Shown here: one piece after another, positions 9,566 to 55,473 of the stretch
How the letters are laid out: each line of letters starts with the position of its first letter
Position numbering within the stretch: the stretch's first letter is position 1
Origin: Heptranchias perlo
Lineage: Eukaryota
Reading direction: 5' to 3'
NCBI RefSeq assembly: GCF_035084215.1
Contig: NC_090337.1
Location: forward strand, 37,386,001-37,450,000
Length of the DNA: 64,000 nucleotides
Program-made: the position numbers and the translations under genes
Notes under the pieces: model-generated
Seen by the model: only the letters and a program-made list of their open reading frames with translations
What the model was told of the DNA's origin: nothing
Databases searched by the model: none

Positions 9566-9745
9566 CTCTCCTTTTCTCGCACAGTGAAGCACAATGGGAG
9601 GTCCCAGGATTCTAGTGTCCATCTTGCGCAAGGTCTCATAAGGCTGGCCTTCGAATTCTCCCAACACAAATATAGTCTCAAATTCAGCATTTTCTTCAAC
9701 AAAATCTTCCACTCTTTCCAACTTAACGAATGGCAGCTTGACTTC
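9566..9745 (-). CDS. ECT2: ECT2 coding exon 4
   Basis: EVKLPFVKLERVEDFVEENAEFETIFVLGEFEGQPYETLRKMDTRILGPPIVLHCARKGE aligns with human DIKVGFVKMESVEEF...RVIGPPVVLNCSQKGE. tag|...|gtata, 180 nt. Confidence 0.95.
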
Positions 9746-11885
9746 CTAAATCATTGTAAACATGAAAGAAAAATCAGAAACAAATCCTGTGCAGTGCCTA
9801 CTGCATGGTGCAGAATAGAAGAATAAATCTCATCACCTATACTAAAAAAAAAATCTCCATCAGATTAATTTTGTAAATTACATATTATTACATCAGGATT
9901 GCATTTTACAGTTTTGGATTTAAAAAAACTCAGCTCCTCCAAAGCTTCCTTAAAAGCAGGAACTAAGTGTCACAAAACATATTTGAAAGTTCTTTATCTG
10001 AATGCACCTAGCATTCGTAACAAAATGGACGAGTTAACGGCACAAATAACTACGTATGGGTATGATCTTGTGGCCATTACAGAAACATAGCTGCAGGGTG
10101 ACAACGACTGGGAATTAAATATGCCAGGTTATTTAACAATCAGGAAGGACAGGCAGGAAGGAAGGGGAGGTGGGGTGGCTATGTTAGTAAAGGAAGGAAT
10201 CACTAATACAGAGAAATGACATTGGGACAAAGGATCAGGATAATGAAACAGTTTGGGTAGAGATAAGGAATAATAAGGGGAACAAAACACTAGTGGGCAT
10301 AGTATTTGGCCTCCTAATAGTTGCAACTCTGCTGGAAGAAGTATTAATCAGGAAATAGTCAGGGCATGTAATAAGGGAACAGCTATAATTATGGGGGATT
10401 TTAACTATCATATTAACTGGACAAATCAAATTGGGCAGGGCAGCCTTGAGGAAGAGTTTATTGAGTGTATTAGGGATGGATTTCTTGAGCAGTATGTAAC
10501 TGATCCTACAAGGGGGAAAGCAACCTTGGACCTGGTCCTGTGTAATGAGCCAGGATTAATTAATAATGTCCTAGTTAAGGATCCCCTTGGAATGAGTGAC
10601 CATAACATGGTTACATTCCATATCCAATGAGAGGGTGAGAAGGTTGGTTCTCAAACAAGCGTACTGAGCTTGAATAAAGGAGACTATGATGGTATGAGAG
10701 CGGAATTGATTAAAGTGGACTGGGAAAATAGATTAAAGGGTAAGACGGTACATGAGCGGTGGTGTTCATTCAAGGAGTTATTTTACAACTTTCAAAAAAT
10801 ATATATTCCACTGAGGAAAAAAGGGTGTAAAAGAAATGACAGCCATCCGTGGCTAAGTAAAGAAGTTAAGGATAGTATCCGACTAAAAACAAGGACATAT
10901 AAGGTAGCCAAACTTAGTGGGAGGATAGAAGATTGGGAAGTCTTCAAAAGACAGCAAAGAGTAACTAAAGGATTGATTAAGAAAGGGAAGATAGATTATG
11001 AAAATAAATTAGCAAAAAATATAAAAACAGATAGCAAGAGTTTCTATAGTTATATAAAAAGAAAAAGGGTGGCTAAGACAAACATAGGTCCCTTAGAGGA
11101 TGAGACCGGGAAATTAATGGTGGGAAACATTGAAATGGCAAAAATGCTGAACAAATATTTTGTTTCAGTCTTTACGGTAGAGGACACTAAGAATATCCCA
11201 ACACTGGACAAACAGGGGGCTCGAGGGGCGGGGGCGGGGAGGAGCTAAATACGATTAAAATCACTAAGGAATTGGTACTCAGTAAAATAATGGGACTCAA
11301 GGCGGATAAATCCCCTGGACCTGATGGCTTACATCCTAGGGTCTTGAGGGAAGTGGCAGTAGGGATTGTGGATGCTTTGGTAATAATTTTCCAAAATTCT
11401 CTGGACTCGGCAAAGGTCCCGGCAGATTGGAAAACTGCTAATGTAACACCCTTATTTAAAATGGGTAGTAGGCAGAAGGCTGGAAATTATAGACCAGTTA
11501 GCCTAACATATGTGGTGGGTAAAATTTTGGAATCTATTATCAAGGAGGCAGTAGCGGAACATTTGGATAAACATAATTTAATAGGACAAAGTCAGCATGG
11601 CTTTACGAAGGGGAAGTCATGTCCGACAAATTTGCTTGAGTTCTTTGAGGACATAACGTGCAGGGTGGATAAAGGGGAACCAGTGGATGTAGTGTATTTA
11701 GACTTCCAGAAGGCATTCGACAAGGTGCCACATAAAAGATTATTGCTCAAGATAAAGCATCACTGGATTGGGGGTAATATTCTGGCATGGGTGGAGGATT
11801 GGTTATCTAACAGGAAGCAGAGAGTTGGGATAAACGGTTCATTCTCGGACTGGCAACCAGTAGCCAGAGGTATTGCTGCAGTTAT

Positions 11886-12256
11886 GAGGACGGCCTCAAC
11901 CGGGATCTTGGGTTCATGTCACGCTACACGTAACCCCACCAGCAAAAAGGGGGAAAAAAATTTATATGTTTTTTAAAATTCTCTCTCTCTCTCTCTCTGC
12001 CATTTTAAGTTTCTTTCTGCCTGCCTGTGTAAAAGACACAATGTATATCGAGTGTACTGGGACGTGCTGTTCTCCGTGACTGGCCTGTTTGAATAACAAC
12101 GACACCTTTTGATTGGTGTGATGCTGTCCCAACATCGTATAAGATATGCGATTTGAGAACCTTTTCATTCAATCATCTGACGAAGGAGATAATCTCCGAA
12201 AGCTTGTGATTTAAAAATAAATTTGTTGGACTATAACCTGGTGTTGTAAGATTCCT
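11886..12256 (+). mobile_element. Penelope-like retroelement 3' fragment flanked by a 9-bp TSD
   Basis: Begins with EDGLNRDLGFMSRYT* (GLN-type GIY-YIG C-terminus of Penelope/Poseidon ORFs). TGCAGTTAT is duplicated at 11877-11885 and 12257-12265. Contains a hammerhead core. Confidence 0.8.
12171..12211 (+). ncRNA. Minimal type-I hammerhead ribozyme
   Basis: AAUCAU-CUGACGA-A-GGAGA-UAA-UCUCC-GAAA-GCUU-GUGAUU: intact core, stem I AAUCAU/GUGAUU, stem II GGAGA/UCUCC, palindromic AGCU in place of stem III. Confidence 0.8.
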
Positions 12257-13529
12257 TGCAGTTATATAAGGTATTGGTGAGACCGCACCTGGAATACTGC
12301 ATACAGTTTTGGTGTCCATGCTTAAGAAAAGACATACTTGCTCTCGAGGCAGTACAAAGAAGGTTCTGGGGATGAGAGGGCGGACATATGAGGAGAGGTT
12401 GAGTAGATTGGGACTCTACTCATTGGAGTTCAGAAGAATGAGAGGCGATCTTATTGAAACATATAAGATTGTGAAGGGGCTTGATCGGGTGGATGCGGTA
12501 AGGATGTTCCCAAGGATGGGTGAAACTAGAACTAGGGGGCATAATCTTAGAATAAGGGGCTGCTCTTTCAAAACTGAGATGAGGAGAAACTTCTTCACTC
12601 AGAGGGTAGTAGGTCTGTGGAATTTGCTGCCCCAGGAAGCTACATCATTAAATACATTTAAAACGGAAATCGACAGTTTCCTAGAAGTAAAGGGAATTAG
12701 GGGTTACGGGGAGCGGGCAGGAAATTGGACATGAATTTAGATTTGAGATTAGGATCAGATCAGCCATGATCTTATTGAATGGCGGAGCAGGCTCGAGGGG
12801 CCGATTGGCCTACTCCTGCTCCTATTTCTTATGTTCTAATACAAGACATTTACTAAAATTATGTTGTTGCATGGCATTCACCAGCTTAAATCTACATTTT
12901 GTAAATATAATTTAGCTTTCCATTAATAAAACAATGATATTGCGCACAAACCCCTCTCCAGGACTTGGCACCAAAATTTGCTTAAAGCTTGCAAAGCTCA
13001 AGTCAACAATAGATAACCAATCATTTCAATCAAATGGTAAGCAAATACATGGAATGCTGCCACAATGGCTATGCACGTTATGAAGTATGAAGTTAAAAGT
13101 ACAGTGGAACTTTAATTACACCCCATAAAGGGGACCACCCATATGGTTAATAGAAATTAGCAAATATTAAAATCTCCAAATTTGGTCCTGCGGGGATGGT
13201 ACTGTAATAACCTAAACTCATGAATGAAGACAAGTGCAAAACAATTGACATTAATTAAATTTCATCTTTCCTTGAGCTGGAAGATTGATTTCTTTCAGGC
13301 ACAGAATTAGTGTTAATGGGTTTTGCAATTAGGCAACATTTCACATAAGATTTTTATCTTGAAGATTATGGCAAGTAATTGGAATGCAGATAATTGAGAA
13401 TCCACTATGTGTGAAAATGTGGAATCATCTAGTTACCAAATATCAAAAAGTTAGTACCAAATCATGATCCTTTTATCACAAAGTTACACAATGGGTAAAA
13501 GAAGTATTGCTTGGCCTGTCTGTAGTCAG

Positions 13530-13900
13530 AAGCTCCTTACTGGCCCAGTGGGTAGAGGTATTGTACGACGTACCACGAAGCCATACAGAATGGGAGATCC
13601 TAGGTTTGATCCCCTGCCTGTGCTGAGGTAGCTGATCTAAGCTGGGGCGATAATTGGGGCATTATAAATTAGCCTTAGCACCCCTAGACTCAGGACATTA
13701 ACAACAAAAAAACCACAATGTGCAAGAGTTCACACTCCTTATTGTTATCCAGTGACCGCTGCTGCAATACACGTGCGCCTGGACATTGGGCGAGAACAGA
13801 ATTGGCTCGGCTGTGATATTCTCCTACATTGGCCATCTAGGCTCACACTTGAAAAAAAATCATTTGAGCAAGTTACTGAAGTGCTTACAACATCAGTGAA
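13530..13900 (+). mobile_element. Ancient tRNA-head SINE (MER131-like)
   Basis: A-box-like tggcccagtggg and B-box-like ggtttgatcc, then tgtgctgaggtagctgatctaagctgggg...tatccagtgacc...ggctcggctgtgat...ctaggctcacac. Family name is from memory of the consensus. Confidence 0.6.
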
Positions 13901-15012
13901 ATTGTATTGTAGCATCTTCAGCAATAAAAGAGGAAAGAAAAAGAAAAAAAATGCACTAAAACCTTTTTACATAAAGAAATGCTTTCGTTGTCCAATGTTA
14001 AACAACTTACAGAAAATAAAATAATTAAGTCTTCTGGATGCAGACCATCAACCATGCAGCACTTCTGAGAATCTTGCATTTCAAAGAGAATTCAGTGGCA
14101 CAGTGTAAGACTATGTTAAATCCATTAAAAATGTTGCTACAAGTGGGGTTACTGTTAGTCCCTGGTAAAAACCTTTGCAAGGGCAGGAAAAGATACAAAA
14201 ATACAGCTTCCAGATTGTAGGTAACAAAGATTTGTTCACAAGCAGCATAGATAAGAGAGTATTTGGAGATAAGACAATGCTAAAATCCCAAAAACTAAAC
14301 CCACCATGCATGTGCACAACACTACAGTAATTAATACTGGTTATAAACTTGCTGCTGTAAAATGCTACAAATAAGTATTCCAGTCCTATCTTCTTACATT
14401 AAAATGGCTTAAAACAATATTGAAGTATACACTATTAAAGTAGAAGATACATTTTTTTTGAGGTGCTAGACATTTGCTGATATCATCTTTAAAGCAACAA
14501 CCAAACAAAAATTATACACCACCAGAATTTGCCCAAGGACATTAATTTTCTATTCCATTAGATAAAATGCAATTATACTTGGTTTGGGTTGGCAGAAATT
14601 ACTCAAAAATCAGTAAACTAAATTATAACCCTCTTCACTCGATATTGTTGCTTCACCCAGACAGATTATTTCAGTTTTTAAACTGAAGCTCACGTGCACA
14701 AGTTACCAACTAATAAGAATCTAGTCAAATGTAAAAGTCCAATCTAGAAAATGCAACTAAAAAGGTCCCAAAGTGGACATGAGTGATAGTTTTCCAAAAA
14801 CTACATCAATAGAAATTTTATCAAGATTTTGTTGTTTTGAAACATAAAATTAGCTGAGTGAACAGTTTCCACTTAGATTCTCGCCAAGTTTGAAATTCCA
14901 GATATTAAACAGATTTCCTTAATTTTAAGACAAATCTGAAGTGCACAGGTATTAGGCCAATGTGAACTATTGCAGGCAGGAGGAATTTACTCCAAAGGTC
15001 ACCAAAACCTAC

Positions 15013-15108
15013 CATAATTACAATAGATTTTATAAACCGTTGACCCAACTTGCTATTAGGTGCGCTTTCCTTCACCATCATCAAAAGAACTTCCATTTCT
15101 TTAACTGT
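15013..15108 (-). CDS. ECT2: ECT2 coding exon 3 (in-frame cassette-type exon, 32 aa)
   Basis: TVKEMEVLLMMVKESAPNSKLGQRFIKSIVIM vs human TIKIMEVPVIKIKESCPGKSDEKLIKSVINM. cag|...|gtagg, 96 nt, phase 0/0. Confidence 0.85.
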
Positions 15109-15976
15109 CTGTGAAGTAACAAGAGTTGATATAAAAAAGTAAAGCACTAGTTTTGGAAGCCAAAGAGCTCCATTTACTGCTGTATTGCAGCTTTATATTA
15201 CAATATCTTATTTGGCAATTTTTTTGCATGAATACTAGATGAGGGCAGAGTCAGGTACAACAATAATGCCTGCCACTTTTCCCCCTCTTGGGTTACATAG
15301 CCCACTAACGCTCACAGTTCAGACCCTCATTAGTAATGGCCACTTGAGGTATCAGAGGGCCCCACTCAATCAACCATATCTTCACATGAGTTTTGCCTTT
15401 GGGAAGGCACAGAAAGAGAGGAGAGAAAAATTAATTTTTCAGAGAACCAATAAAAAAGTTAAAGGGGAAAACAAAACACTATTCCTCTAAATTTAAAAGC
15501 CAGGAACTAGTTACATTGTGTAAAATGGGACTGCATTACAGTGAACCACTGAAATGTTCTACCACAGAAGATAACAAATACTGACTCAGTTTCACATCAA
15601 TAGTTCAGCTTTAGCCATTGCTTATGAAGCTGATGTTGGAGTTATGTACCAGACCTGCAAATTGAGACAGTAACAAAAAATATCACTTAGCTGAAAATAA
15701 CTTGCCAAAAATGTCTCAAATCTTCAAGCAAAATTGAGAAAATAAAACTTTCTATCGCTCTACTTTAAAGAGAAAAATGATACGATCTTCACCCAAAATT
15801 GTATCTTATGACCATTTTAGGAATGACAGGTGTTTTACTAATATGATTTACTATCATAGTAAGAGAACCAGACAATCATTTAAAATTAAAAAGACTCTTA
15901 ATACAACACACACCACTGACATCTACAGATGGAAAGAAGATGAAGGTGACTGAAGTTTTAAACCTGAAGTTATTAC

Positions 15977-16053
15977 CTCCAAGGCTTTCAGAATCTCTTC
16001 AGTGTTCCCAATTTTTCCCATTAACACAACTTTTGTTTGAATCCGAGGTACAC
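15977..16053 (-). CDS. ECT2: ECT2 coding exon 2
   Basis: (G)VPRIQTKVVLMGKIGNTEEILKALE vs human EMPQIETRVILVQEAGKQEELIKALK. tag|...|gtaata, 77 nt, phases compatible with neighbours. Confidence 0.92.
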
Positions 16054-20100: not shown

Positions 20101-20689
20101 GCAGGACATAATTAAACTAGGGCACGCAGATGTAATTCAGTCCCCATTTTAATGTGTGTCAAATATAGATAGGCAGTTTCCATTATAAATGAGGAAACAG
20201 AAATTGATAATGGGAAAAATTGACAAAGTTAATGCAGATGCAAGATTTTTATTATATTACTTTTCGATCTCATATAGTGTTGTACACGGAGAGTCAAGAC
20301 CAAGTACAGCCGTGTGGCAAAAGTAGTCGTAGAGGGTATGGGATAACTGCACCACACCATGCCAACATAATTTATTCCCTATTTCAAAGTTACATATTCT
20401 GCTCTGACTATAAAAAAATTCTGATATTGTAATTCTATATTGTTAAATTTCTGAAATAAAACACCAACATCAATTTAGAAGTTTATTAACAAAGACCAAC
20501 AGCAATCATAAGTTAAAACAAATTATCATAATAAAATACAATCATCCAGGGGAAAAAATACTCCGTCAAAAATAAACAAATTCCCAAAAAGAAACACAAC
20601 AGTTCGAAAGGTATCTCTGTGTTAAATAATTAAGTCTCCAAATATCATAAAAGTTTTACCAAACTGTATAATGGGGCACAATTGTGTAT

Positions 20690-21070
20690 GCAACAAAGCT
20701 GGAACCCAGAAAACCTGTTGCAGTATTGAATGCCATGGCACAATAAGCGACCCATGCACAAACATTGGAGTAAGTAAAACCTGCGACCTCCACCACCGAG
20801 AAGGACTAGAGCGCCAGGTGCATAGGAGCACCATCACCTCCAAGTTCCCCTCCAAATCACACACTTGGACATATATCGCCATTCCTTCTTTATCACTGGG
20901 TCAAAATCATGGAACTTCCTACCTAACACTATTGTGCAAGCACCTTCATTATACAGAATGCAACGGTTCACAAAGGCCCACTACCACCTTCTCAAGGGTA
21001 ACTAGAGATGGGCAATAAATGCCGGCCTTGCCCGCGACGCCTACATCCCGAGAACGAATAAGAAAAATAA
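20690..21070 (+). mobile_element. CR1-like LINE 3' end
   Basis: cgacctccaccaccgagaaggactag...ggcaataaatgccggccttgcc...catccc...gaata followed by an A-rich tail. Confidence 0.6.
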
Positions 21071-21324
21071 CATATAAATCACCTTACTAATGTTGAAATA
21101 TACAGGCTTCACTGATATATCTGTAATACTGTTTACCTACAACTTTAAAAATGTGCTTAAGTTATAAATAACTTGTTCTTCCTTGCAAAAATCAAATTTC
21201 AGTTACTTATATTATACTAGTTTATCCCCTGTGGCCTTGCACATGGGGAGTAAAGACCAAGTGCAGAATTCAGATCAAACAGGATTATAGGATAATTGAA
21301 TTAGAGCAAGAACGGGGAGAGGGT

Positions 21325-21440
21325 AATTGTAAACAATTTTACAACACCAAGTTATAGTCCAGCAATTTTATTTTAAATTCACAAGCTTTCGGAGGCTTCC
21401 CCCTTCGTCAGGTGAACGATGTGAAATGAAATCCTCGAAA
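21325..21440 (-). mobile_element. Penelope-like 3' terminal fragment (related to 11886-12256)
   Basis: Minus strand reads tttaaaataaaattgctggactataacttggtgttgtaaaatt, matching 12210-12255. Confidence 0.75.
21377..21417 (-). ncRNA. Minimal type-I hammerhead ribozyme (second copy)
   Basis: GUUCAC-CUGACGA-A-GGGGG-AAG-CCUCC-GAAA-GCUU-GUGAAU, with intact core and stems. Confidence 0.8.
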
Positions 21441-21815
21441 ATGAGGGTAGGTAGAGGACAGAGGGGAGAGGGTAGGTAGAGGACAGAGGAAAAGCACAAG
21501 ACAGAGAAAGGGCAGGGGGAGGAGGGATGCAAAAGCATAGGAGGAGGTTGAGGAGAGATGTGGGGAATAAGGTGTAAAGAGGAAGGAGAGAGGGAAGGAA
21601 GGTGAGGAGAGAAGAGGGAGAAAGACAGGGAAAGGGGAGTAGGGGAGAGGGAGAAGAGGAGAGATGTAGGGGGAGGAGGCCAGGGACAGAGGAAGATGAG
21701 GGAAAAGAGGATGGAGGGGGAGGATAGGGTAGGAGAGAGGAGGGGCAGAGAGGAAGAGAAGGAAAGGAGAGGATAGAGGAGAGGGGGAGATGAGGAGGAT
21801 GGGGAAAGAAGGACA
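21441..21815 (+). repeat. Purine-rich (GA) low-complexity tract
   Basis: ~375 bp, strongly G/A-dominated, with a local repeat gagggtaggtagaggacagagg. Confidence 0.85.
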
Positions 21816-24800
21816 GCAAGCTTGGCTCCCCGTGTGAGGTGGGTGAGATGTGCTCAGGTAAGGAGGCTAGATTGCGGTCTCCAAAGTGGGGGAAGGGTTA
21901 TTTGGCTAGTCAGTGTCGGGGGGGGGGGGCGATAGTTGTGTTCAGATGAGGTATGTGGGGTCCGATCACCAGAACAGTGGTCAATATGGGAGGGGTTAAT
22001 GCTGGCTGAGGGATAGTTAGCTAGTCGGTATTGCTCAGTGGGCTGGTGGTGTGTAGTCACTGTACTTGTGCTCAGAGAGGGATCGGGGGGTGGTGGTTAG
22101 CACAATATCTCTTCTCAGTGGGAGAAATTCCAATGTGAAATTGGAAAATAGTGATGATAGTTATGCTGTAGCCAGGGTTCAATGCTGGAGGGGAAGTTTG
22201 TGCTCTTTGCTTGTTGGGGGTGGGTGAGGCGGGCATTCAATGTAGTGTTTTGTCCAGTTGTAATATTTATGTTCAGTGGGTGGGATTGATAATAGGTTTA
22301 TGGTTCAATTCTAGAATTTCTGCTAAGTGGGGATTCAGCTGTGAATTGCAGTTAGAATCTACATTCTATCATGATCCGATTTGCTGAGGCAAACATTGCT
22401 ACTTTTTTCCTGCCTAGTGGCAGTTATTCTCTGGTGCAGCACTAAAATAGAGAACTCAGATTTAGCAGTTGAACGAAGTATGGTTCATTTTAGTGACTGG
22501 CTTAGGCGAGGAAGATCAATTAAACCAACCGAAGTTGTTCTGACGATTGCTTTTTCTTCTAATTTAAGGGAAAAGCTGTTAAGAGGCAGGGAAGCGTTGG
22601 TGTCGAAAGGTTCAGAACAATTTAATAAAACAGGCTTTCCACCATCCAATCCTGCCTTGCCAGTTCATGCTCTTTTCCTGGGCCTGCTTTTCTTCCCAAA
22701 CTGACCCACTCTGAGACCTCTTGCCAGGGCCTCCAGCTGCTTTAATAAGAATCTGCTTTGCTCCCTGAGCTATTCCGCTCTGGTTCTCTCCCATTGCTGA
22801 TTCCCACTGCTTTCCTTGAGGCTTCCAACAACTGCTCCCCCCAATTCATCCCATTGGTTCTTGTTATTTTTCTGGGCTTGCTTTCCTCCCTGAACTCATC
22901 CGCTCTTTCCTGTTCCCACAGCTTTCACACACTACCTGGCTGCTTTAATGGTGACCCGTTCTGTTCTCCTGGTCAAGCTTCTTTCTGTACTGCTTGAATT
23001 ACATGTACCTTTTTAAAAAAAAAATTAGCCCTGCTGTATTTTTTTTAAATGACCGTTATACTTTTTATAATGATATCAAATCAGAAGTGTGAATAGAGCA
23101 AAATATATGCAAGTAACTGAAGAGAACTTTAGAAAGGAAGAACTTGCATCTTAAATAAATTTTGTAGATGTAGATAAGTAGTATTAAAATATTGTACCTA
23201 TGAAGCTATGCATTTTTTAATCAATAAGTTATGTATGCTTCCTGTCAGTTATGCAATATATTGCTTCAGTACATTTGCTATTGACAGCAATAGATCAATC
23301 ACTGTTGTATTTAGATTGCAGCAGGATTGCAGTAAATAGAAACCATGGGGGCAATTTTTGTCTATCACCCTGATTTTCAACATGAACAGGGCAGTAGCAG
23401 GACCAATTTTTTTTAAATCGTGCCAAATTTGCACCCTAGGGCTGCCTGATGTAATTTTCGAGCAGCTCAAATATTTGGGAGTATCTGTTCTTTGCAGTTT
23501 AAAATTTTAAAAATATCCCAAATAATATAACTGCTGCTTGGGAACCTTATAAAGTTTTAAATTAGTTCGACTACAGCCAGCTTGAGTCTAAAGCAGTGTC
23601 AAACTATCTCAAGTTGATTGTTATAAGTATACCATTAAAATATGTACAGCAAATAGTAGGAGCTGCCACAATATACTATCACCCAATATTCCTCTCCCTT
23701 GTACCAACATGTACAAAAGATGTGAATGTCCCAGAAGCAGCCTTCTACCTGTAAGCACCCAAACCCACCCGTATTTCCAGGTTTGCCTATATGGGACATG
23801 GGCCAGGATGCCCAGGAAAATCCACTGACAACTGCTTCTCTGACCTGCAACTTTCTGTGCTCACAACATCTGACAACACATCCTCAAACACAGAGATAGG
23901 CATTATCACCGAATATATCGCTTCCTCTTTAGTAGGGGAAAAGCCATGAACAATAGGACTGTTTGATATTGTACTAAAATGTTCTTATCTAATGTTCTAG
24001 ATATAAATACAACTTTTTCTCAATTAAATATCAAAACAATTAAAAATAGCTTTTATTATTTTGCTAAGCTGCCACTCATGACCATGTTCTAAAAGTACAT
24101 GTCGGATACCTGCGAAATATATTTAACAGGAGTTATATTTTGGGATTTTTTGGCCATTTTCCCACAGAAAGGATTTGGAAAAAAGTTAAAGCATTGTGAC
24201 AAGTTTAGAAAATGCTGAGGCAAAAGCTAGTTAAGATGCTAATGAGCTGGCTTTGAAGTTTCCTTTGGCTGTAAATAATAAGCAATTTGTTAGTGTGTCT
24301 CAATCAAAAACCACCTCATATTCATTGTATTAGAGTCTTTATTCTCTTTTTTTTGGCAGTAAATGGAAAGATACAATATTGAATCTGGCAGTGAGACTTT
24401 TTGAAACAGATACTGCACAGGCAAAGATGCAAGGGCTTTCATGGAGACTAAGAGGTCAGAAATGCTGGATGTCATTGTTTAAGTAAGACGACCCACTGGT
24501 GTAGGAAGGTTTGGTGTGTTCTTTATTTTGTGTTAGTACATGAAAATAAATTGTACAGTTTGAATCAAGTGAGTCTGATCATAACTGGTGTACAGTATGT
24601 TTACCTTACTGTTAAAGTGGTTTAATGATTCATATCTGGCCTTATCTCACCAAGTGTTGGTTCGGTCCACGGTCGGCAAGATCAAAGAAGTACACATGCA
24701 AAAGATACGAATATCCAGTTCAGGTCATAAGAGGGTTATGCTAGCCCACAAAGATAGAGGGCAGTGTGAGTCAACTTCTGTAAAAAGAATGACACACAGA

Positions 24801-28465: not shown

Positions 28466-29425
28466 CTATGTATTACTATTCCACAGATCATCAGTCTTAC
28501 TTTCTCTCAGTTGATTGATAATTTTGGTGAGATTGTCAATTTTCTGCTCTTTTCTTTTTAGTTTTTGTTGGAGTACTCTGAATTTTTGCCTATGTTCTTC
28601 ATTCTTCTTTCTTTCCCACGCAAGCTTCTTTTCTAGAGTTCTCCTGATTATATCTGGGCAAGGACTCATAAAGTAACTGTGATCCTGAGGAAATGTCATT
28701 CCTGACAAATCCTGATCATCATGAGAAGATAGCACCATCTCAGAGGAACACTGCAGTTCTTCAGAAGCCAGAACTGGAGTGGATAGATGGGTCTCCGTTT
28801 CTGGGATGAGCACTTCTGTAGATATCCAAGTTGTTCCTTCTGATATTGTTACTCTATCAGATATTAGGTCTGCAGATGTTGTAAATAAACATGGCAAAAT
28901 ACTAGTGCTCACTGCAGATACATCCATTGAACCCACGAGCGCAGTGGATGTATCCGATAGTACTTCAGGTCTCGATAATACATTGGCTGTCCAATGGAGG
29001 GCATCTGAACACAGAGCTGCAGCTGAATCTTGAGATTGTTCCTCTGAATGAGTTGTTATTAATCCACTTGAAACTGATTCCATCTTTGCATCTGTTGAGC
29101 ATGTTTGAGGTTGTGCACTGCAGTTAAAGACTGTGAGGACTTCTGAAGACTCTGCTTCAGATTTTAGAGGAACTTCCAATACTTGAGAGAATTCTGCTAA
29201 GTTCAGGACCGCTGCTGCTGCTAGTTGAGCTAGTCGCCCTGTATTAAGAGTCTCTGTAGTTAATGTAGACTGCACATCCGTGATTTTAGTTGGCTCAGCT
29301 GGCTGACTTATTGCTTCATCAACCGAATCAACTTGCAACGGCAAAAGCGACATCTGTACCTCCGAAGTTCCCGTATGGTGTCCAGCAGAAGCTTTTGCCT
29401 TATGTGACCTTCTGGAGCTTGTGGT
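28466..29425 (-). CDS. THAP domain-containing protein exon 3 (low-complexity linker, DHSY HCF-binding motif, coiled coil, stop)
   Basis: tttgcag|ACC acceptor and a 960-nt open frame ending in TAG. QDHSYF followed by RTLEKKLAWERKKNEEHRQKFRVLQQKLKRKEQKIDNLTKIINQLRE. AATAAA at 28464-28459. Confidence 0.9.
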   Translation of the reverse strand, partial: TTSSRRSHKAKASAGHHTGTSEVQMSLLPLQVDSVDEAISQPAEPTKITDVQSTLTTETLNTGRLAQLAAAAVLNLAEFSQVLEVPLKSEAESSEVLTVFNCSAQPQTCSTDAKMESVSSGLITTHSEEQSQDSAAALCSDALHWTANVLSRPEVLSDTSTALVGSMDVSAVSTSILPCLFTTSADLISDRVTISEGTTWISTEVLIPETETHLSTPVLASEELQCSSEMVLSSHDDQDLSGMTFPQDHSYFMSPCPDIIRRTLEKKLAWERKKNEEHRQKFRVLQQKLKRKEQKIDNLTKIINQLRESKTDDLWNSNT

Positions 29426-30135
29426 CTGCAAATTAGTTAAAATTAATGTTTGTATTGTGTTATTTCTAAAAAAAATAATCTAAATACATTTTACACGGCA
29501 TCATAACATCTTTGAGATAATTTAAACTCAATGTGCCCAGTGCTACAAAAAACTTCAGGGGCCATTCAAAATGGTCATTTTCAGTAGTACACAAACAAAA
29601 TCCCATGTCCTCAAACTCAAACCTCAAGTCAAAACATTTACTTGTTTTAAAAATACGTGTAATGTACACTTTAAAAAGAACTAGCGCCCTCAGTCATATT
29701 CTTGACTTCTACAGCCAGTAAAAGCGTACCAATTCAGTATTCCCACAAAAGATACTGCCTGCAATTCTTTTGAGACACCGACAGTTAACAATGGTACACC
29801 AAAGGGATCATGCTTTTGAGGACACCCTCTCAGCAGTTCTTCTAAAACACTGCAAGACTTTGGTAACTATTTAATTCAGTCAATTACAATGTCATCTAAA
29901 GCAATCAGTATTTGGGTTATTTGCTACTTAATGGAGAGGGCTAAAAGTCCTTACAAAAAGTGTACATTGATTACCCCCGCCAATAGACAACTTACATGCC
30001 ATATATAATTGTGAAAACTTATTTGTGGTCACTTGGAGCAAAAATAAATGGGATGCAAAAATGGGTTTTAATCAACAAGTTACCAAAAAATCATTTACTA
30101 AAATAAATGCCGAACACAATAATGATTAAAACTAC

Positions 30136-30325
30136 CTTATTTTTAGGAGGTGGAAATATGGTTGGAACAGAAGAAAATTTTAAATGCCTTCGATCATTCC
30201 GTTCCTCAAAACAATCTTTTGTGAAGTGATCACTACAGAGAGTTGCTCTTGGTGATGGTATCCAGTTTTCCCGTGCTACAGCTTTCAGCCAATTTGCCAT
30301 GAGATCTGGTCTTGAAATTGGAAAT
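30136..30325 (-). CDS. THAP domain-containing protein exon 2
   Basis: FPISRPDLMANWLKAVARENWIPSPRATLCSDHFTKDCFEERNDRRHLKFSSVPTIFPPPKNK carries the THAP P-W-C-H-F-P signature and AVPTIF box. catag|...|gtagt, 190 nt. Confidence 0.93.
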
Positions 30326-32999
30326 CTATGTTGACAGAGCCCAAAATAAAACAGAAGTAGGGATTCAACAAAACTTACTGAAATTGCAAGTATCGTAAAT
30401 AGCTTTTTCAATTTTTAATATTTTTTAAATTTGAGAAGCTGTACCCATTAGTCAACGCATCTGCTCTGCAACTCTGTGCATAATTGTCTGTCAGCAACAG
30501 CCCCATTCCGCCAAGTCGTCTTAAACTCACTTAACATTTAAATGAGTTTGGTCAGTACAATTCTCTTAATAGAAAGGTGGGGTTTAAGTCATAAAAATTG
30601 GACCACCAACCATTAAAGCTCTGCAATTCTTAGGATGTGAAAATAAACAGATACTCAACAATAGGATAAACAAAAACATTAATAGGTTAGAAAATACATA
30701 TTAGTAGGCATGTCAAAAATCCTAAACCTACGTAATACTGGTACAAGACATAACCAATGGCGCTGAATAAGAAAATAACAATTAAAACTGCAATAAACTC
30801 AAAATAAATCTCTCACTCTGCAAGTACCTCCTATGAAAACTGATCGAAATCCCTCCAAACTAAAAACTAAGTCATGCAGATTACTGGATACAAAAGCCTT
30901 CAGGTCATAAATTCATGCAACACTCAAAAGGAAAATCTCAAACACACTTTCAGCTTATCTGGCATATTACAAGTAAAAACATTATAAAATGTCAATCAAA
31001 AAAGAAAAATACTGACCCTAATAAAAACACTTACTTCCTGTTGGTTAAACATTGAATGTAAACATCTACCAACCAAATAAAGCAATCCACACTAAGCAAA
31101 GGCATGACACATTATGGATTTTTCACCAGATGTTGATTTAACACGTCAACCAAAGAAAAAGCAAAACAATCAGAAAAACAATTCCCACAGAAAAATAATA
31201 TTGAAAGTTCTTGTCCTTACACTTGCATAAACAAATGGTGAAAGACTAAAAACTTTTCTTGAAATGACCACAAATTTTTCATGTATTCTGCAACCTCACT
31301 GTCCAAACTCTAACCTCAGATTAACACATCAAAGATAAGTTTGCAGGACTGCTTCACATACACCATGCACACTGCATACCTAAATGGTGTGCCCAAAATT
31401 GGTAAACAAAGAACAATTTCACAACATATCAAAATACAATTTTATACGGTGCAATTGCTACAATTTGGGTTGTATCCCGTCGTTTCTGTTGAGCAGGAAT
31501 AAGAAATATCAAGCAAGCTTGCAATTCTTATAAACTGACATTAGTTTGTACACAAATTACATAGGAAAGCTGGTTTCCAGGCCAGTGTGTCATTTTGTGC
31601 ACTGGAAACAGTATGGGATATCACAATACACTCCTGACTTTTCCAACTGACTGAAAATACCACACTGACAAAATGTGAACAGAAGCAAGGCAGTAGCTTC
31701 GATATACTTAACTTTGTGCGATCCGTTCCAAAACAATAAAAGTTCCTCTTTAGCAGCTTTACATGAGAAATGAACCTACGAGTCCCTCATTAATCCCGAA
31801 ACCCATACAGTGGCATGGGAAACTGGAGAACATCAGTCTGTTTATATCTCACTTTTTCCTTTGATGTCCAGACAGATGCAATGCAAGAGGATCTCGTACA
31901 ATAATAATCAAATTGGAATTACTTCTTGTGAAGAAAAACCATCAAGTCAGTTTCCAACCCCCCACAGACTGCCTCTCGGGCTTCCAGATACAATTTTCAT
32001 ACCACTAGAACAAAGCAAAACTGCATCTATATACTTGACAGGATTGTGTCTTATCAACCTTCCCTAATGCCAACAGAAAATTTCTCCCCGAATGCAGTCA
32101 CAAAAATTGTAGCAATACTGATGCAGCTAAAAATTTTTTTAAAACTAGTAGATCTCCTGTAGCGTTGCCCGTGGCAAGTCAGAGGATTCACTGCTTTATA
32201 ACAATAGGGGTGTTAAGATCATGTAGGGGAAATATCAGGCCCACTGATTTACAGGAATTGAATAAGTAAAATTCCATTTATATTAAGTGGTATTCTGGAA
32301 TCACTTCTTGTGCTTTGGGGGTTGAATTCCATGGCTAGCTATTGTTCTGTGAAAACCCTAAATGAGCAGCCTTTACTATTCCTTCACCTATGTAAATAAT
32401 TTTTTTAAAAACCTTTTATCAGTTTTGAAGCCAAGTATATGGCAAGACAGCATGCAAGATGTATCAGTTGAAATTAGATATCTGGGAGATATAACAAATT
32501 CTACTGCCATAAACAAAAACATTGCTGATACATTTCTTATTTTAGTGTGGGATGGCTCAGGTTCCAAGTCACGCCATTTTCAGAAATTTCTCGGTTTGAG
32601 CTAGTTAAGAAAATATGCTTATGAAACAGTACTAGCAATAGAAACTAACAGGAAAAATGATTAAAGCCATGATGGCCAAAGAGATGTATGCAGACAAACT
32701 TTACCATCCATCTACTGAAAAAGGGAGTGTAGCAGTGTGGATCTGGCAGGATAATGGAATGAAACATTTTTTAAAAAAGAAGCACTTTCCAATATGCCAG
32801 ATTTCAGACCCCATAGTAAAGTGCTTTAGTAAACTTGTTTTAAACTGCAGGAAAAGCTATTAAACAGAATCTCATAATAATGACAAATATAATATATCCA
32901 ATGAGGTTGGTTAACATACACAGCAGCATCACATCTATTTTGGCAATTGCTTTAGAGATAGGCTGTTAAAAGAGAGCAACGAACTTTGCGATTCTCCGA

Positions 33000-33490
33000 G
33001 GTATTCCAATGCTCTCCTGGCTGGCCTCCCATCTTCCAACCTCCATAAATTTGAGCTCATCCAAAACTCTACTAACCCATATCCTAACTCGCACCAAGTG
33101 CTGTTCACCCATCACCCCTGGCTCCCAGAACACCTTGACTTTAAAAGTCTCATGTTTGTTTTCAAATCCCTCCATGGCCTCGCCCCTCCCTATCTGTGTA
33201 ACCTCCTCCAGCCCTACAACCCTCCGCCATCTCTGCGCTCCTCCAATTCTTGCCTCTTGCGCATCCCCGATTTTAATCACTCCACCATTAGCGGCCGTGC
33301 CTTCAGCTGCCTAGGCCCTAAACTCTGGAATCCCCCCCCCCTAAACCCCTCCACCTCTCCTTTAAGACGCTCCTTAAAACCTACCTCTTTGATCAAGCTT
33401 TTGGTCACCTGTCCTAATATCTCGTGGCTGGATATCAAATTTTGTTTGAAAATCGCTCCTGTGAAGGGCCTTAGGTCTTATTTTTACTAC
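33000..33490 (+). mobile_element. L2 LINE 3' fragment
   Basis: FKSLMFVFKSLHGLAPPYLCNLLQPYNPPPSLRSS...GRAFSCLGPKLWN is a typical L2 ORF2 C-terminus. Confidence 0.85.
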
Positions 33491-33705
33491 CTTAAACGCA
33501 AGTTGTACCTGATTAAAATCGCCATCTACCTGCGTCACCGTGACTTACCCGCCTTATACTAAAGAAAACTGCGGTTTTACAAAATTTGCGCACATTTGAG
33601 ATTTTACGGTCGGAAATTTTATCAAAGAGCAATTTTTTTTTAAAGGAAAAGGCCTGGAGAAAAGTTAACCTCACAGCACCAACGAGAATTGGCCTCTCAG
33701 GGTAC

Positions 33706-33776
33706 CTGTGGAAAGTTATGCCGCTGCCTTTCTTGAAGCGGTTCTTACAGTCCAGTGCGCTGCACGAGACTGGCAT
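33706..33776 (-). CDS. THAP domain-containing protein exon 1 (ATG)
   Basis: MPVSCSALDCKNRFKKGSGITFH(R) with CxxxxC. 71-nt exon ending AG|gtacc, phase 2, which joins exon 2 in frame. Total 406 aa. Confidence 0.93.
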
Positions 33777-34484
33777 CTTCCAGGTGCGGGCAGCGCCGGC
33801 CGCGAGCGGGCACCGACTCTCTGCCTGGAAGAAAGATGGCGGCCTGGCGGCGGTGACGTCACTTCGAATTCGGAACCTGGCCTCCCGAATAGATTAGAAC
33901 GCTGGGGAGAAAAAAAAAAGACACGAAACATTCGCATTCCTTAATTCGAGTCAATCCTTCAATGCGCGAAGGTCATAAATATGATCGGCTTTATTTATAT
34001 ATATTTTTTTAAAACCCTTCATTCACCCTTTAAGGAGGAATCAGTACCGCCCTTTCTTTTGTTTTGCAGCCTCCCCTCCCCCCCCCAAACTAGCGGAGCC
34101 CCAAGGATTGTGGTGGCTTTAATTAAACTGCAGTGACATTGTCTCCACAAATAGCACAAACGGATTTAACAAACTTAAATGGTTTTCCGGTGCCCAGGGG
34201 ATTTTTTTTGCGCAGTGCACCCCCTCCCTCCCTCCCTCCCTCTGCGTGGCCATTCTCTTCCGGTAACAACCGCGGCCCGTCATTTCTGAAAGTGAAATGT
34301 TACCAGCGTTAAAAACTACAACTCCCGGCATCCCGCCCTCCCCGCCCGATTGGCCGACTGATAAATCCGCATCGGCCTGATTGCCCCCCCCCCCTGTGCT
34401 GCCGGCGTTAAGTCACTGTCGCGGGGTGAATTGTATCGCTGTGTTTCCAGGAGCGTTTCCATTTTTGCCCCGGATTCCGCAATA
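33777..34484. promoter_or_regulatory. CpG-rich bidirectional promoter between the THAP gene and NCEH1
   Basis: YY1-type AAGATGGCGGC 33833-33843, CRE palindrome TGACGTCA 33854-33861, ETS-like CTTCCGG 34257-34263, ACTACAACTCCCGGCA 34315-34330, ATTGG 34349-34353 and GC boxes. Confidence 0.75.
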
Positions 34485-51324: not shown

Positions 51325-51553
51325 TGTCATCTCGTGCAGCAACTGGGACTTGGCCACCACCTGAAGGTTCTGAATTTTGTTATAACCATGTTTGAGATGC
51401 TTGCCCCTCAATCAAGTGAAACAGTTGAAGTGACAGACACGGCATTTGATGGAGTACAAGTCAGAGTGTTTGAACCCAAGAAGAGGCTGGATGGTGAACT
51501 AAAGCGAAGTATTATTTACATACACGGTGGAGGCTGGGCTTTAGGAAGTGCAA
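51325..51553 (+). CDS. NCEH1: NCEH1 exon 2 (HGGG oxyanion motif)
   Basis: cag|CHLVQQLGLGHHL...FDGVQVRVFEP...RSIIYIHGGGWALGSA|gtaagt, 229 nt. Confidence 0.96.
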
Positions 51554-52660
51554 GTAAGTGTACTACAAAAGGAAGTAGTGAACTTTTGCTCAGACATGTT
51601 TTGCAAGTTACAAGAGATTATTGAAGCTTTGAGACATTTTGTTAAATATCCAGACCATACATTCTTTATCATTTAGCATCATTTTAAATGTGTGCTTTTA
51701 ATTAATTTGGTATAGCTGCTGGAGTTTAAAGACAAATAGATAGAGTAGCCTCGATTTTACATTGGTGCAGAGTCTCACCAGCAGTGAACGTGATCAGGAA
51801 TTCTGTCATGCGGGTCTGCATGCCCAATATACTGCGCACTACAATTTTCAGTGAAGAAGGTAGACAGCTTTCGATGTTAATGATCCATTGCCTGCCACCC
51901 CCTGCCCGCCCTCCTCCCCACCTCCTCAATAGCGTGACTTTCTCATAGAAGCAATAGCCTGGAATAATAAATCACAAAATTTGTTTCAAAATAACAAAAT
52001 GTCTCAAAGCTTCAATAATCTCTTGTAACTTGTAAAACATGTCTTTGAGCACAAGTTTTACGTGAACGTAGCTGTTCAAGGACCACTTCACTCCGCCCCC
52101 TTGCTACAGTGGCCTGACCTGAACTGGGAAAAGTGTGCCATACTTGTATCCAGAACAGGCTTCTTCTGGGTAAAAAGATGTCTGTCAAAAAATATACTTC
52201 AAAGGTATTAATGCCCTTCCCCTCAAACCCGTTATCCATTTCCAGGACAAAGCCGGGCTATGGGTCTGATAAACAGGGACCCTGCAGAAACAGGCACCAC
52301 AGCCAGAGGCCCTTCAAATATCTGGTATGGTAAGAACTGCAAACGTAGGCTTAGGCTTTCCGGCCCCATCCCGCCGGTTTTCTGTCGGGCAGGGCCGGAA
52401 GTGCATTTGGGGACTCACATCTTCCCCCTCTCCTTTTCCAGAGGGCAGTCCAGTGGCACAAAATCTGCCTGCCCATATGAAGGTGGGGGTGTGGAAATTA
52501 CATAGAAATGGGGGAAACACAGTCTCCCAAATGGAAAGCCTAGTCCATAATGTCCTCCATCACCCATTAATAAGCATTAACCAGAAAGTTTGGTTGGCTG
52601 CATATAAAAAGATCTGACTCCTGAGAATGCAATCCTTTTTTTTTTGTCTTGCTTACACAG

Positions 52661-52730
52661 GAATGCGATCATATGACCATCTTTGTCGGAAGATGGCAAA
52701 AGATATGAATGCTGTTCTTGTCTCTATTGA
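52661..52730 (+). CDS. NCEH1: NCEH1 exon 3
   Basis: cag|(R)MRSYDHLCRKMAKDMNAVLVSI(E)|gtaagt, 70 nt, phases compatible. Confidence 0.95.
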
Positions 52731-53767
52731 GTAAGTAATAACAAACTATATCAGCATAATTCTCCCAGATGATGCATTTTTAGGACAATTTTGTTTTTTG
52801 CTTAAGAGCTCAACTTAATAATCATGGAAATCTATAGACATAGAGGCTGTTAAAGGGCTAGTGAATTGGGTTTTTGTTATTTTGAACAATGTATAATTCC
52901 AAAATTCATCTCCAGTTATTCAATAAGAAAAATCTGAATTAAAGATAAATTTTGTGATTAGATTCCTTCTGATTTCCACTTCAGTATTTTCACCTGCATG
53001 GAAGGGAATTTGTTAACTGTGACAACTGCAATTTTTTCATATTGTAGCCAAAAATGTAACAATGCCAAGAGGCTCAATTATGGCTGGATGCAACATGATT
53101 CCTTTGCACTTGGACTATCAAATCAAGGATCTGAGTCAGAGAGTCCTGCCTTGGCCCTTTATTCTTGGCTGTATGCCACTTCTGGTTCAGGAAACCGACA
53201 GATAGAAACTGAGTTTTCATTTCCGAAAGAACTTATCTGTCAACGCAAATGGAGTACAAAGGAGAATTTCCAAGTCATTTTTGGTGTAATGTCAGCAAGA
53301 ATTGAGGCAAGTAACTTTAACCCTTACAGAACCGCTGGTTAGGCCGAAGCAAGAACGGGACAACCTAGGCCAAGCATGCTTGGCACATGGTCCACTCAAC
53401 GCTGACCAATTTCCGAGAGGGGTCTTTAAACAGACGTTAAGCCCCTCGTTAGCATGAGTGACAAGTTTAAGGCGGCCAAAAGAGACGTCTGAATATCACC
53501 CATGCCGAAATGGCATAGGACATCCTTGGGCATGGGACACAGACCCACGAAATTGGATCTTGTTGCCCCATTTCATGCCCGAAAAACAGCTGCGACAAGG
53601 TCTAATATCAACCCCACAGAGACTTAACCAATGAGGAAGAAAACAAATCAACAGATGTCCAAAGAAGAAAATTGACATATTTATGATCGACACAATAATT
53701 ACTATAGACACAAAACTTTTACACAATGATCACTATAGACACAAAACTTTTTATTAAATTGGATATA

Positions 53768-53793
53768 GTGTGTGTGTGTGTGTGTGTGTGTGT
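53768..53793. repeat. (TG)n microsatellite
   Basis: About 13 GT units. An imperfect 31-bp tandem duplication lies adjacent at ~53690-53752. Confidence 0.9.
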
Positions 53794-53941
53794 ATGTATA
53801 TAAGTCTTGAATTCATTGTTCATATCAGTACAGAATTAAATTTTTTAAGTTTTACTGTTATGAATCAGACTTGCATCAAGTCAAAGACTTTACAAATTGA
53901 GTCTTATTGAAATTAATTACATTGTGCTTTCTTAAATTTAG

Positions 53942-54113
53942 GTATCGTCTTGTCCCAGAGGTTCGTTTTCCTGAGCAGATTAATGATGCTTATAGTGCTA
54001 CCAAATATTTTCTGCAGCCTGAGATCTTGTCCCAGTATTCAGTGGATCCAAATCGAATTGCAGTGTCTGGAGACAGTGCTGGAGGAAACTTGGCTGCTGC
54101 TGTAAGCCAGCAG
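53942..54113 (+). CDS. NCEH1: NCEH1 exon 4 (catalytic GDSAG)
   Basis: [17 protein letters not shown]...[24 protein letters not shown]|gtaatt, 172 nt. Confidence 0.97.
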
Positions 54114-54855
54114 GTAATTACCTTTCACTATGTATTGGACAAACTACAGTCGTTTTATCATAATATTACCTGATGACCTCTCACTAATCAGCATGACATC
54201 TCCCACTGGAGTGGTCTTAAACTTAGAATTAGAACAAATCCATTTTTGTGGAGTGCATCGTTGCACTTGATACTGTTGAGGAAATCAATTCAAAACTTAT
54301 AACAATGAGTGTACACTTAAAAAGCGCTGATTGCACAAAATTGGAGCCAGTGTTTTAAATGTAAACAAATGTTAATGTTTGTCCCAGGCATGCTGCAGTG
54401 ATGTTCAAGGTCAGAGTATTATTGAAGTGCCTTTAAAGAATCCTTTACAGTTTTAAAAATATCCACAAGTTGCTTTTTCATAAAGGAAATTCAAGGCTTA
54501 TAGCAGAGAACATCGCAATTATGACTTCAGTGTCACCATTTGGTCTGTTATGATACATTCATTCATCTGCCCATTTCCTGTATCTGCGACATGATTTTAA
54601 GTTAAATTCTGCAGCTGTTCTACTATTTAACATTGATATGTATATTTTCCAAATTATTTATGCAATACTACAACTTTCTTTGTCAAAGCTGTAAAGGTGA
54701 ATGATCAGTAGTTTGAGTACACTTTTGTTTTGAGTATTTTCTGAATCAACAGAAACATTGTAACATTGTTGCAAACTCTGGTAGCATCCAAGTCTCTTAA
54801 AAATGTTGTACGTGCATCAAAAAAAAATCCTTTAATTTTTTTTTTGTGTATGTAG

Positions 54856-55473
54856 CTTGTTATGGACAGAAGCATCACCACCCGACTCAAGCTTCAAGCT
54901 CTTATATATCCGGTACTTCAGGCTCTTGACTTCAATACTCCTTCCTATCAACAGAATATGGCCGCACCTATCTTGTACAAACCGGTCATGGCCCGTTTCT
55001 GGCTGGAGTACCTGAATGGTGACCTGAGCTTTGTCCAGGCAATGTTGGTCAACAACCACACAGCCTCAGACCTAAGTCAGCTGACTTCTATCCGAGCTCG
55101 CTTAAACTGGACAGCTCTTCTACCAAAATCATTTAAAAAGAACTACAAACCTGTCATCCAGGTAATGGGAAGTCCACATGTTATCAAGGAGTTGCCAGCA
55201 TTGCTGGACCCAAGAGCAGCTCCACTAATTGCAGATGAAGAAATCCTGCAGTTGTTACCAAGGGCCTACATCCTGACCTGTGAACATGATATTCTAAGGG
55301 ATGACGGAATAATGTATGCAAAGCGCTTAGAAGATGCTGGCATAGAAGTGACTCTCGACCATTATGAAGATGGATTCCATGGTGCCATGATATTTGCACT
55401 GCCACCTACCAACTTCGATGTAGGAAACAGGATCATGAACAACTATATAAACTGGCTGGACAAAAATTTGTGA
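54856..55473 (+). CDS. NCEH1: NCEH1 exon 5 (catalytic Asp/His, stop)
   Basis: [24 protein letters not shown]...[11 protein letters not shown]...DGFHG...WLDKNL*. The five exons sum to 1227 nt = 408 aa. Confidence 0.97.

What the first reader, a model, noticed from the sequence alone, without database searches (positions are those of the whole stretch)
12171..12211. Intact minimal hammerhead ribozyme with an extra A after CUGACGA and a palindromic AGCU stem III
Seen: all core nucleotides (CUGANGA, GAAA, UH) and stems I and II can form, with predicted cleavage after CUU (12205). Known: Penelope-like elements carry minimal type-I hammerheads whose palindromic stem III needs dimerisation, and an extra residue between A9 and stem II occurs in some natural hammerheads. 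Inference: this is a self-cleaving RNA family of this genome's Penelope elements. It lies antisense to ECT2, so it would not cut ECT2 pre-mRNA.
Basis: partly seen in the sequence, partly recalled or inferred. Interest (0 to 1): 0.7.

Follow-up and report, generated by a model that had tools for sequence, protein, structure and literature searches.

The report
Penelope retrotransposon's minimal hammerhead ribozyme
This is one of more than 80,000 copies in this genome of a tiny, already described self-cutting RNA motif carried at the end of a Penelope-type jumping gene, here a lone antisense stub in an ECT2 intron that likely does nothing, although two other copies joined to U6 RNA at the predicted cut suggest that the family does cut in living cells.

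Summary
Observation confirmed: full core, stem I (6 bp), stem II (5 bp), extra A, AGCU palindrome, cut predicted after 12205. The motif lies in a 371-bp truncated end of a young Neptune-type Penelope-like element (PLE) with a 9-bp target duplication, inside an older LINE in a spliced ECT2 intron, antisense. It is 100% identical to the ends of a full-length copy with an intact 891-aa RT/GIY-YIG frame and two hammerheads 3,040 nt apart. The motif occurs 82,594 times (control 2). The extra A and the palindrome are the published norm of PLE minimal hammerheads (PMC4209133), not a variant. Insertions almost always keep the cut site intact, and 5' junctions do not pile up there (169 vs 202 and 152). 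Two independent loci have U6 snRNA (5 T) joined at the predicted cut, and none at about 40 neighbouring positions: indirect, n=2 evidence of cutting in vivo. The scan noted this motif class (1,179 notes) and the U6 junctions (6 notes, at least 3 genomes) before on other DNA; the U6 lead came from there. Known kind.

The parts
12171..12211 (+). Minimal type-I hammerhead motif; predicted cut between 12205 and 12206
12184..12184 (+). Extra A between A9 and stem II (family norm)
   Evidence: PMC4209133
12200..12205 (+). Palindrome: 4-bp AGCU helix III in a dimer, extendable to 6 bp through a competing A14-U17 pair
11886..12256 (+). 371-bp 5'-truncated 3' end of a young Neptune-type PLE; ends 51 nt after the predicted cut, at the family's short end
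11886..11933 (+). Last 15 codons and stop of the PLE RT/GIY-YIG frame
12216..12221 (+). AATAAA 10 nt after the predicted cut, shared by the subfamilies seen
11877..11885 (+). Left copy of the 9-bp target-site duplication
   Evidence: a paralogous LINE site in L270 has one copy
12257..12265 (+). Right copy of the 9-bp target-site duplication
11191..12837 (+). Older LINE fragment that received the insertion (RVT_1 hit at 11191-11976; bounds approximate; the label CR1-like is recalled)
9745..15975 (-). ECT2 intron that holds the insertion
21325..21440 (-). Second stub (about 116 bp) of a sister subfamily with its own intact hammerhead (core starts 21411); opposite strand, upstream of the ECT2 start codon

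Best explanation
The motif is the minimal type-I hammerhead in the terminal repeat of a young Neptune-type Penelope-like retrotransposon, and this copy is a passenger in a truncated antisense insertion that likely never cuts anything. In source elements two copies flank one 3,040-nt unit (shown). A single copy cannot close helix III (A15.1-U16.1 around a 2-nt loop), so two copies would pair through the AGCU palindrome and cut after CUU (inferred from the anatomy and from published PLE hammerheads). Cutting is likely slow or protein-assisted, so most RNA is reverse-transcribed uncut or after re-ligation; that is why inserted copies keep the site whole (copies shown, cause inferred). A fraction likely is cut in germ-line cells, leaving a 5'-OH end that an RtcB-type ligase can join to U6 (junctions shown, ligation inferred).
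For: Identity to a full-length element with an intact 891-aa frame, RT motifs, CX4CxxC linker, GIY-YIG and CCHH residues, hammerhead in both repeats. 82,594 motif matches against 2 in the reversed control; 2,176 of this subfamily. Core intact in 96 of 100 and 83 of 100 listed copies with the core left free; 8 of the 17 breaks are G12A at a CpG (counted by eye). In 12 hand-picked variants 93% of stem cells pair and 4 of 11 pairs change on both sides (9 of 500 shuffles as high). The active dimer is nested and pairs fully, at -16.9 kcal/mol against -19.6 for two monomers and -19.5 for the mispaired dimer, fitting the low activity reported in PMC4209133 and the protein-assisted cutting in PMC11167929. 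3' ends of this subfamily lie mostly at +52 to +60 (17 of 37) and +90 to +97 (17 of 37) past the cut. U6 with 5 T is joined at +1 at two loci of two subfamilies with different target duplications, at none of about 40 neighbouring positions.
Against: No cleavage assay and no raw RNA reads. 5' junctions of insertions show no excess at the cut: 169 at +1, 202 at +2, 152 at +3; direct junctions 9 of 30 against 13 of 60, p 0.44. The U6 evidence is two events, and the two T before the cut make junctions at -2, -1 and +1 look alike, so a template switch is not excluded. Core conservation in a young family is partly just youth. The covariation set is small, related and was found with a pattern that fixes the core. 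PMC11167929 found no RNA-seq reads ending at the cut and no need for cutting in vitro in a Poseidon element.
Confidence: 0.8

Rival explanations
1. The motif is kept as a folded signal (protein binding, packaging or reverse-transcription start) or as a hitch-hiker, and does not cut in cells.
For: Copies keep the site intact and 5' ends ignore it; the active dimer is predicted less stable than two monomers; U17 allows a competing pair; PLE clades without hammerheads proliferate well (PMC8557442 passages).
Against: Among the 100 listed copies the one core position that differs between abundant variants is N7, the free one; two U6 junctions at the predicted bond and none nearby, including the longer ATTTT match at +4 to +8.
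Confidence: 0.13
2. Cutting at both repeats followed by ligation gives a 3,040-nt RNA circle, and the circle is the normal template for new copies.
For: L031 holds 3.9 kb of sense sequence, more than one unit, and crosses the site twice intact; the U6 junctions imply ligatable ends; proposed in PMC4209133. This overlaps with the best explanation and differs only in making circles the main route.
Against: An uncut tandem read-through transcript gives the same DNA; same-strand tandems exist (three copies 3,081 nt apart). Contigs cannot tell the two apart.
Confidence: 0.25
3. This particular copy has been co-opted to act on ECT2 or on an antisense transcript.
For: It lies in an ECT2 intron with an intact core and an AATAAA.
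Against: It is antisense, alone, 100% identical to copies on other contigs, so it is too young for conservation to mean anything; the intron is spliced across it.
Confidence: 0.02

Closest known systems
Minimal hammerheads (min-HHR) in the terminal repeats of metazoan Penelope-like elements (Cervera and de la Pena 2014, PMC4209133)
   Same: Type I, no loop 3, palindromic 15.2-16.2, a nucleotide between 9 and 10.1, G10.1-C11.1 pair, in both repeats of full elements, mostly dispersed as single motifs; reported in Xena, Poseidon and Neptune elements of fishes.
   Different: Copy number 82,594 against about 4,000 (coelacanth) and 9,000 (Xenopus) quoted there, by a different search; cartilaginous fishes are not named in the parts I read; low sequence variety here.
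Neptune clade of endonuclease-bearing PLEs (PMC8557442; bioRxiv 10.64898/2026.07.22.740005)
   Same: One frame with RT, CX2-5CxxC linker and C-terminal GIY-YIG with CCHH; partial tandems, inverted truncated copy, optional 30-40-bp tail.
   Different: No tree built; Nematis shares the linker and is set aside only because the preprint found just Neptune and Poseidon in vertebrates.
PAc, Poseidon element of Anolis (Frangieh et al. 2024, PMC11167929)
   Same: Two internal 3' end sites about 35-40 nt apart; uncut RNA is the main template.
   Different: There the hammerhead overlaps the start of the frame; here the predicted cut lies 93 nt upstream of the first ATG.
U6/LINE-1 chimeras made by RtcB ligation (Moldovan et al. 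2019, PMC6789731)
   Same: U6 ending in 5 T joined to retroelement RNA that needs a 5'-OH.
   Different: Partner is a PLE and the junction is one fixed site, the predicted ribozyme cut, not scattered sites.

Membership tests
PLE minimal type-I hammerhead | Complete core CUGANGA, GAAA, UH | tested here: met
   family-wide
PLE minimal type-I hammerhead | Helices I and II, ends meeting in helix I | tested here: met
PLE minimal type-I hammerhead | [quoted passage not shown] | tested here: met
   (pair G-C in 12 of 12)
PLE minimal type-I hammerhead | Palindromic 15.2-16.2 allowing a dimer helix III | tested here: met
   (structure can be built; predicted less stable than two monomers)
PLE minimal type-I hammerhead | Located in both terminal repeats of a full PLE | tested here: met
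   (L031: 3964 and 7004, same strand)
PLE minimal type-I hammerhead | Self-cleavage as a dimer | not testable with these tools
   only indirect: U6 junctions
Neptune-clade EN+ PLE (parent element) | Single frame with RT and C-terminal GIY-YIG bearing CCHH | tested here: met
   Pfam hit for RT only, GIY-YIG read from motif; several relatives carry PF01541
Neptune-clade EN+ PLE (parent element) | CX2-5CxxC linker between RT and endonuclease | tested here: met
   residues 753-761; definition from PMC8557442
Neptune-clade EN+ PLE (parent element) | RT phylogeny inside Neptune rather than Nematis | not tested
Non-LTR retrozyme | Short non-coding tandem units, each with a type-I hammerhead | tested here: not met
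   single copy that begins inside the PLE frame and is identical to an autonomous element's end
Rfam hammerhead families | Score at the gathering threshold of a hammerhead model | tested here: not met

The most novel reading that the evidence does not exclude
U6 snRNA copies ligated at the predicted bond in two subfamilies are a fossil record that minimal Penelope hammerheads cut in the vertebrate germ line, that their 5'-OH product is an RtcB substrate and stays a template for the element's RT, which makes ribozyme-plus-ligase circles a direct, testable route for Penelope retrotransposition.
Probability: 0.6. Interest if true: 0.6.

Novelty: new member of a known kind. Interest (0 to 1): 0.27.

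Why it matters
The motif itself adds one more host and family to a class described in 2014. What stays open in the papers read is whether these weak ribozymes cut in cells and what for (PMC8557442 calls the function unclear; PMC11167929 saw no cut ends in RNA-seq). This genome offers a very young family with an intact frame and identical repeats, a ready substrate for the test, and two U6 junctions that point to the exact bond. A specialist would not be surprised by the intronic copy.

Tried and rejected
Rfam: no hammerhead hit. Extra A as a novel variant: rejected. Pile-up of 5' ends at the cut: not seen (394 vs 339 at -1; 169 vs 202 and 152); none of the 30 sampled +1 loci was scored as running on into the frame (the script tests three 8-base starts, and L165 reads a few codons in with a fourth). 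The +2 control (6,128) was spoiled by a subfamily with an extra G and was dropped. One search had a mis-sized pattern (30 hits) and was dropped. In one search the script's classes were corrected by eye for 4 of 90 loci (L178, L183, L197, L244 counted as direct) before the Fisher test. These T-excluding patterns cannot see junctions whose flank ends in T, as the U6 ones do. A looser U6 pattern added no locus (L271 is unrelated); L251 is unrelated. No RNA holder listed on record; four guessed-RNA runs are contigs of one sample, cover the whole unit and show no intron-like joint in it, and cannot show ends, strand or level. Dimer with the second window motif: rejected, opposite strand and 9.2 kb away. 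Retrozyme: rejected. Lunse et al. (PMC5785218) is not held; only its title was seen. Sequence look-up in earlier findings was blank.

Full report
Observation. A strict descriptor gave 0 sites in 100 shuffles of the window and a loose one 0.18 per window, while the window has two real sites, 12177(+) and 21411(-). Folding recovers stems I and II, but the energy is not unusual (z -1.42). In three flanking contexts stem II holds (P 0.75-1.0) and stem I varies (0.15-0.94). Rfam has no matching hammerhead model.

Surroundings. The motif lies in a 371-bp insert, 11886-12256, between two copies of a 9-bp repeat; a paralogous LINE site elsewhere has one copy of that repeat (L270), so it is a target duplication. 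The host sequence is an older RT-coding LINE fragment. ECT2 runs on the minus strand: the exon at 5889-5996 matches solved ECT2 at E 1e-10, the one at 15977-16051 weakly (E 0.21), and one contig in one of four guessed-RNA runs of one sample joins 9744 to 15976 with minus-strand GT..AG ends. The insert is therefore intronic and antisense.

Parent element. The insert has 47 listed matches among 40 scored of 1,079 candidates, four other places at 100%. L031 is a full-length copy: an inverted truncated arm, then two 881-bp direct repeats around an open frame of 891 aa from the first ATG, with identical hammerheads at 3964 and 7004, 3,040 nt apart, and the predicted cut 93 nt before the ATG. The protein has RVT_1, DKG, YIDD, a CX4CxxC linker, a GIY-YIG motif and CCHH residues. 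By the definitions in PMC8557442 (passages) that is Neptune or Nematis; bioRxiv 10.64898/2026.07.22.740005 (part 1 of 5 and passages) found only Neptune and Poseidon in vertebrates, so Neptune is likely; no tree was built. The closest named relatives are shark proteins at 80-96% identity.

Family. The motif pattern matches 82,594 places against 2 for the reversed control; this subfamily has 2,176. With the core left free, 96 of the 100 listed copies of the subfamily and 83 of 100 listed copies of all subfamilies have an intact core; 8 of the 17 breaks are G12A at a CpG (first places on contig 1 only, counted by eye). The extra nucleotide is A in 100 of 100 and 98 of 100; one has G and one match is a truncated copy. 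Among 12 hand-picked variants, 93% of stem cells pair and 4 of 11 pairs change on both sides (9 of 500 shuffles as high); the set is related and was found with a core-fixing pattern, so this is modest support. In the list two same-strand pairs lie one unit apart and 22 pairs are inverted (by eye); most copies are single or inverted.

Comparison with print. PMC4209133 (parts 1-2 of 4: abstract, results, discussion; figures and supplements not seen) describes this class, names the nucleotide between 9 and 10.1, the G10.1-C11.1 pair and the palindromic 15.2-16.2 as conserved traits, reports it in Neptune elements of fishes, and finds no activity as monomer and low activity as dimer. PMC11167929 (parts 1-2 of 4) shows protein-assisted cutting, no need of cutting for insertion in vitro, no RNA-seq ends at the site, and two internal RT starts. 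PMC6765202, PMC7229834 and PMC6155905 were seen as passages and agree.

Mechanism. A monomer cannot close helix III around two bases (sequence). The double hammerhead can be built with all pairs standard, at -16.9 kcal/mol, against -19.6 for two monomers and -19.5 for a dimer with A14 paired to U17 (secondary structure only), so weak or assisted cutting is expected. The DNA record shows that templates usually span the site: of 37 distinct subfamily copies, 17 end at +52 to +60 and 17 at +90 to +97 past the cut, one runs on into the frame and two end elsewhere, and L031 crosses the site twice. 5' junctions are no commoner at the cut than beside it: 394 vs 339, and 169 vs 202 and 152 with point mutants largely excluded; direct junctions were 9 of 30 vs 13 of 60 after correcting 4 classes by eye, p 0.44. 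This window's copy has no same-strand partner and is antisense, so it is likely inert.

Evidence that the family cuts. Four matches form two loci. L247 holds a full U6 (118.8 bits) and L245 a U6 3' piece read by eye and by script; in both, five T are followed by base +1, in inverted arms with 12-bp target duplications and different subfamily sequence. Patterns covering about -20 to -8, -3 to +10 and +10 to +22 found no other junction (one unrelated hit, L251), although +4 to +8 offers a longer match to the U6 end. Of 17 exact U6 3' ends in the genome, 9 look like genes (full length, 4 T), 2 are the arms of L247, and the other 6 join no PLE. Mature U6 ends in five U with a cyclic phosphate and RtcB joins it only to 5'-OH RNA (PMC6789731 passages), which is the end a hammerhead leaves. 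Against: n is 2, and the two T before the cut hide a junction at -2 or -1; my rough chance figures are 0.006 (3 of 40 positions, twice) to 0.06 (1 of 4 T-runs, twice). One search for U6 snRNA, Penelope, ribozyme and chimer found 0 papers, and a search on in vivo cleavage listed none on this point (listing only). The scan has noted such junctions in at least 3 other genomes; those notes are unchecked and not independent support.

Verdict. A real, ordinary member of a known class; interest 0.27. The only part beyond the known is the indirect record of cutting in vivo, thin in this genome and already noted by the scan elsewhere.

Noticed in passing
window 21325-21440 (-): A second intact hammerhead stub of a sister subfamily. 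Contigs cover 20224-24500 almost without a break, with similar depth on both sides of it; it lies upstream of the ECT2 start codon (17943) and may sit, in sense, in a long 3' UTR of the next minus-strand gene. Contigs cannot show strand or ends.
   Followed up: partly
L245 1440-1660 (G000:C5) and L247 1420-1720 (G000:C35): U6 snRNA joined at base +1 after the predicted cut, inside inverted Penelope arms with 12-bp target duplications.
   Followed up: yes
L254, L255, L257, L269, L270: Other U6 retrocopies with 5-8 T where the genes have 4; L254 and L270 are joined to LINE-like sequence also found in the window, L255 is an inverted partial U6.
   Followed up: partly
L258-L265 (G000:C28:14.52-14.55 Mb): Cluster of eight full-length U6 genes 2-11 kb apart.
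   Followed up: no
L035-L064: Subfamilies keep about 91-97% identity in the protein and a shared sequence after the hammerhead, but differ strongly in the stretch between stop codon and hammerhead.
   Followed up: no
L045/L046, L052/L053, L130/L131, L133/L134: Short fold-back insertions whose turning point lies at or just before hammerhead stem I.
   Followed up: no
L125-L154: A subfamily of several thousand copies with an extra G in the 3' arm of stem I, which shortens the stem to about 5 pairs.
   Followed up: partly
window 11870 region: The host LINE appears to lack part of its RT region just before the insertion site (judged from recalled family sequence, not tested).
   Followed up: no
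window 28466-33824 (-) and 51325-55473 (+): A minus-strand gene with a THAP-like start (recalled; no Pfam hit) and a plus-strand abhydrolase gene (PF07859), likely NCEH1, the neighbour of ECT2 in other vertebrates (recalled).
   Followed up: partly
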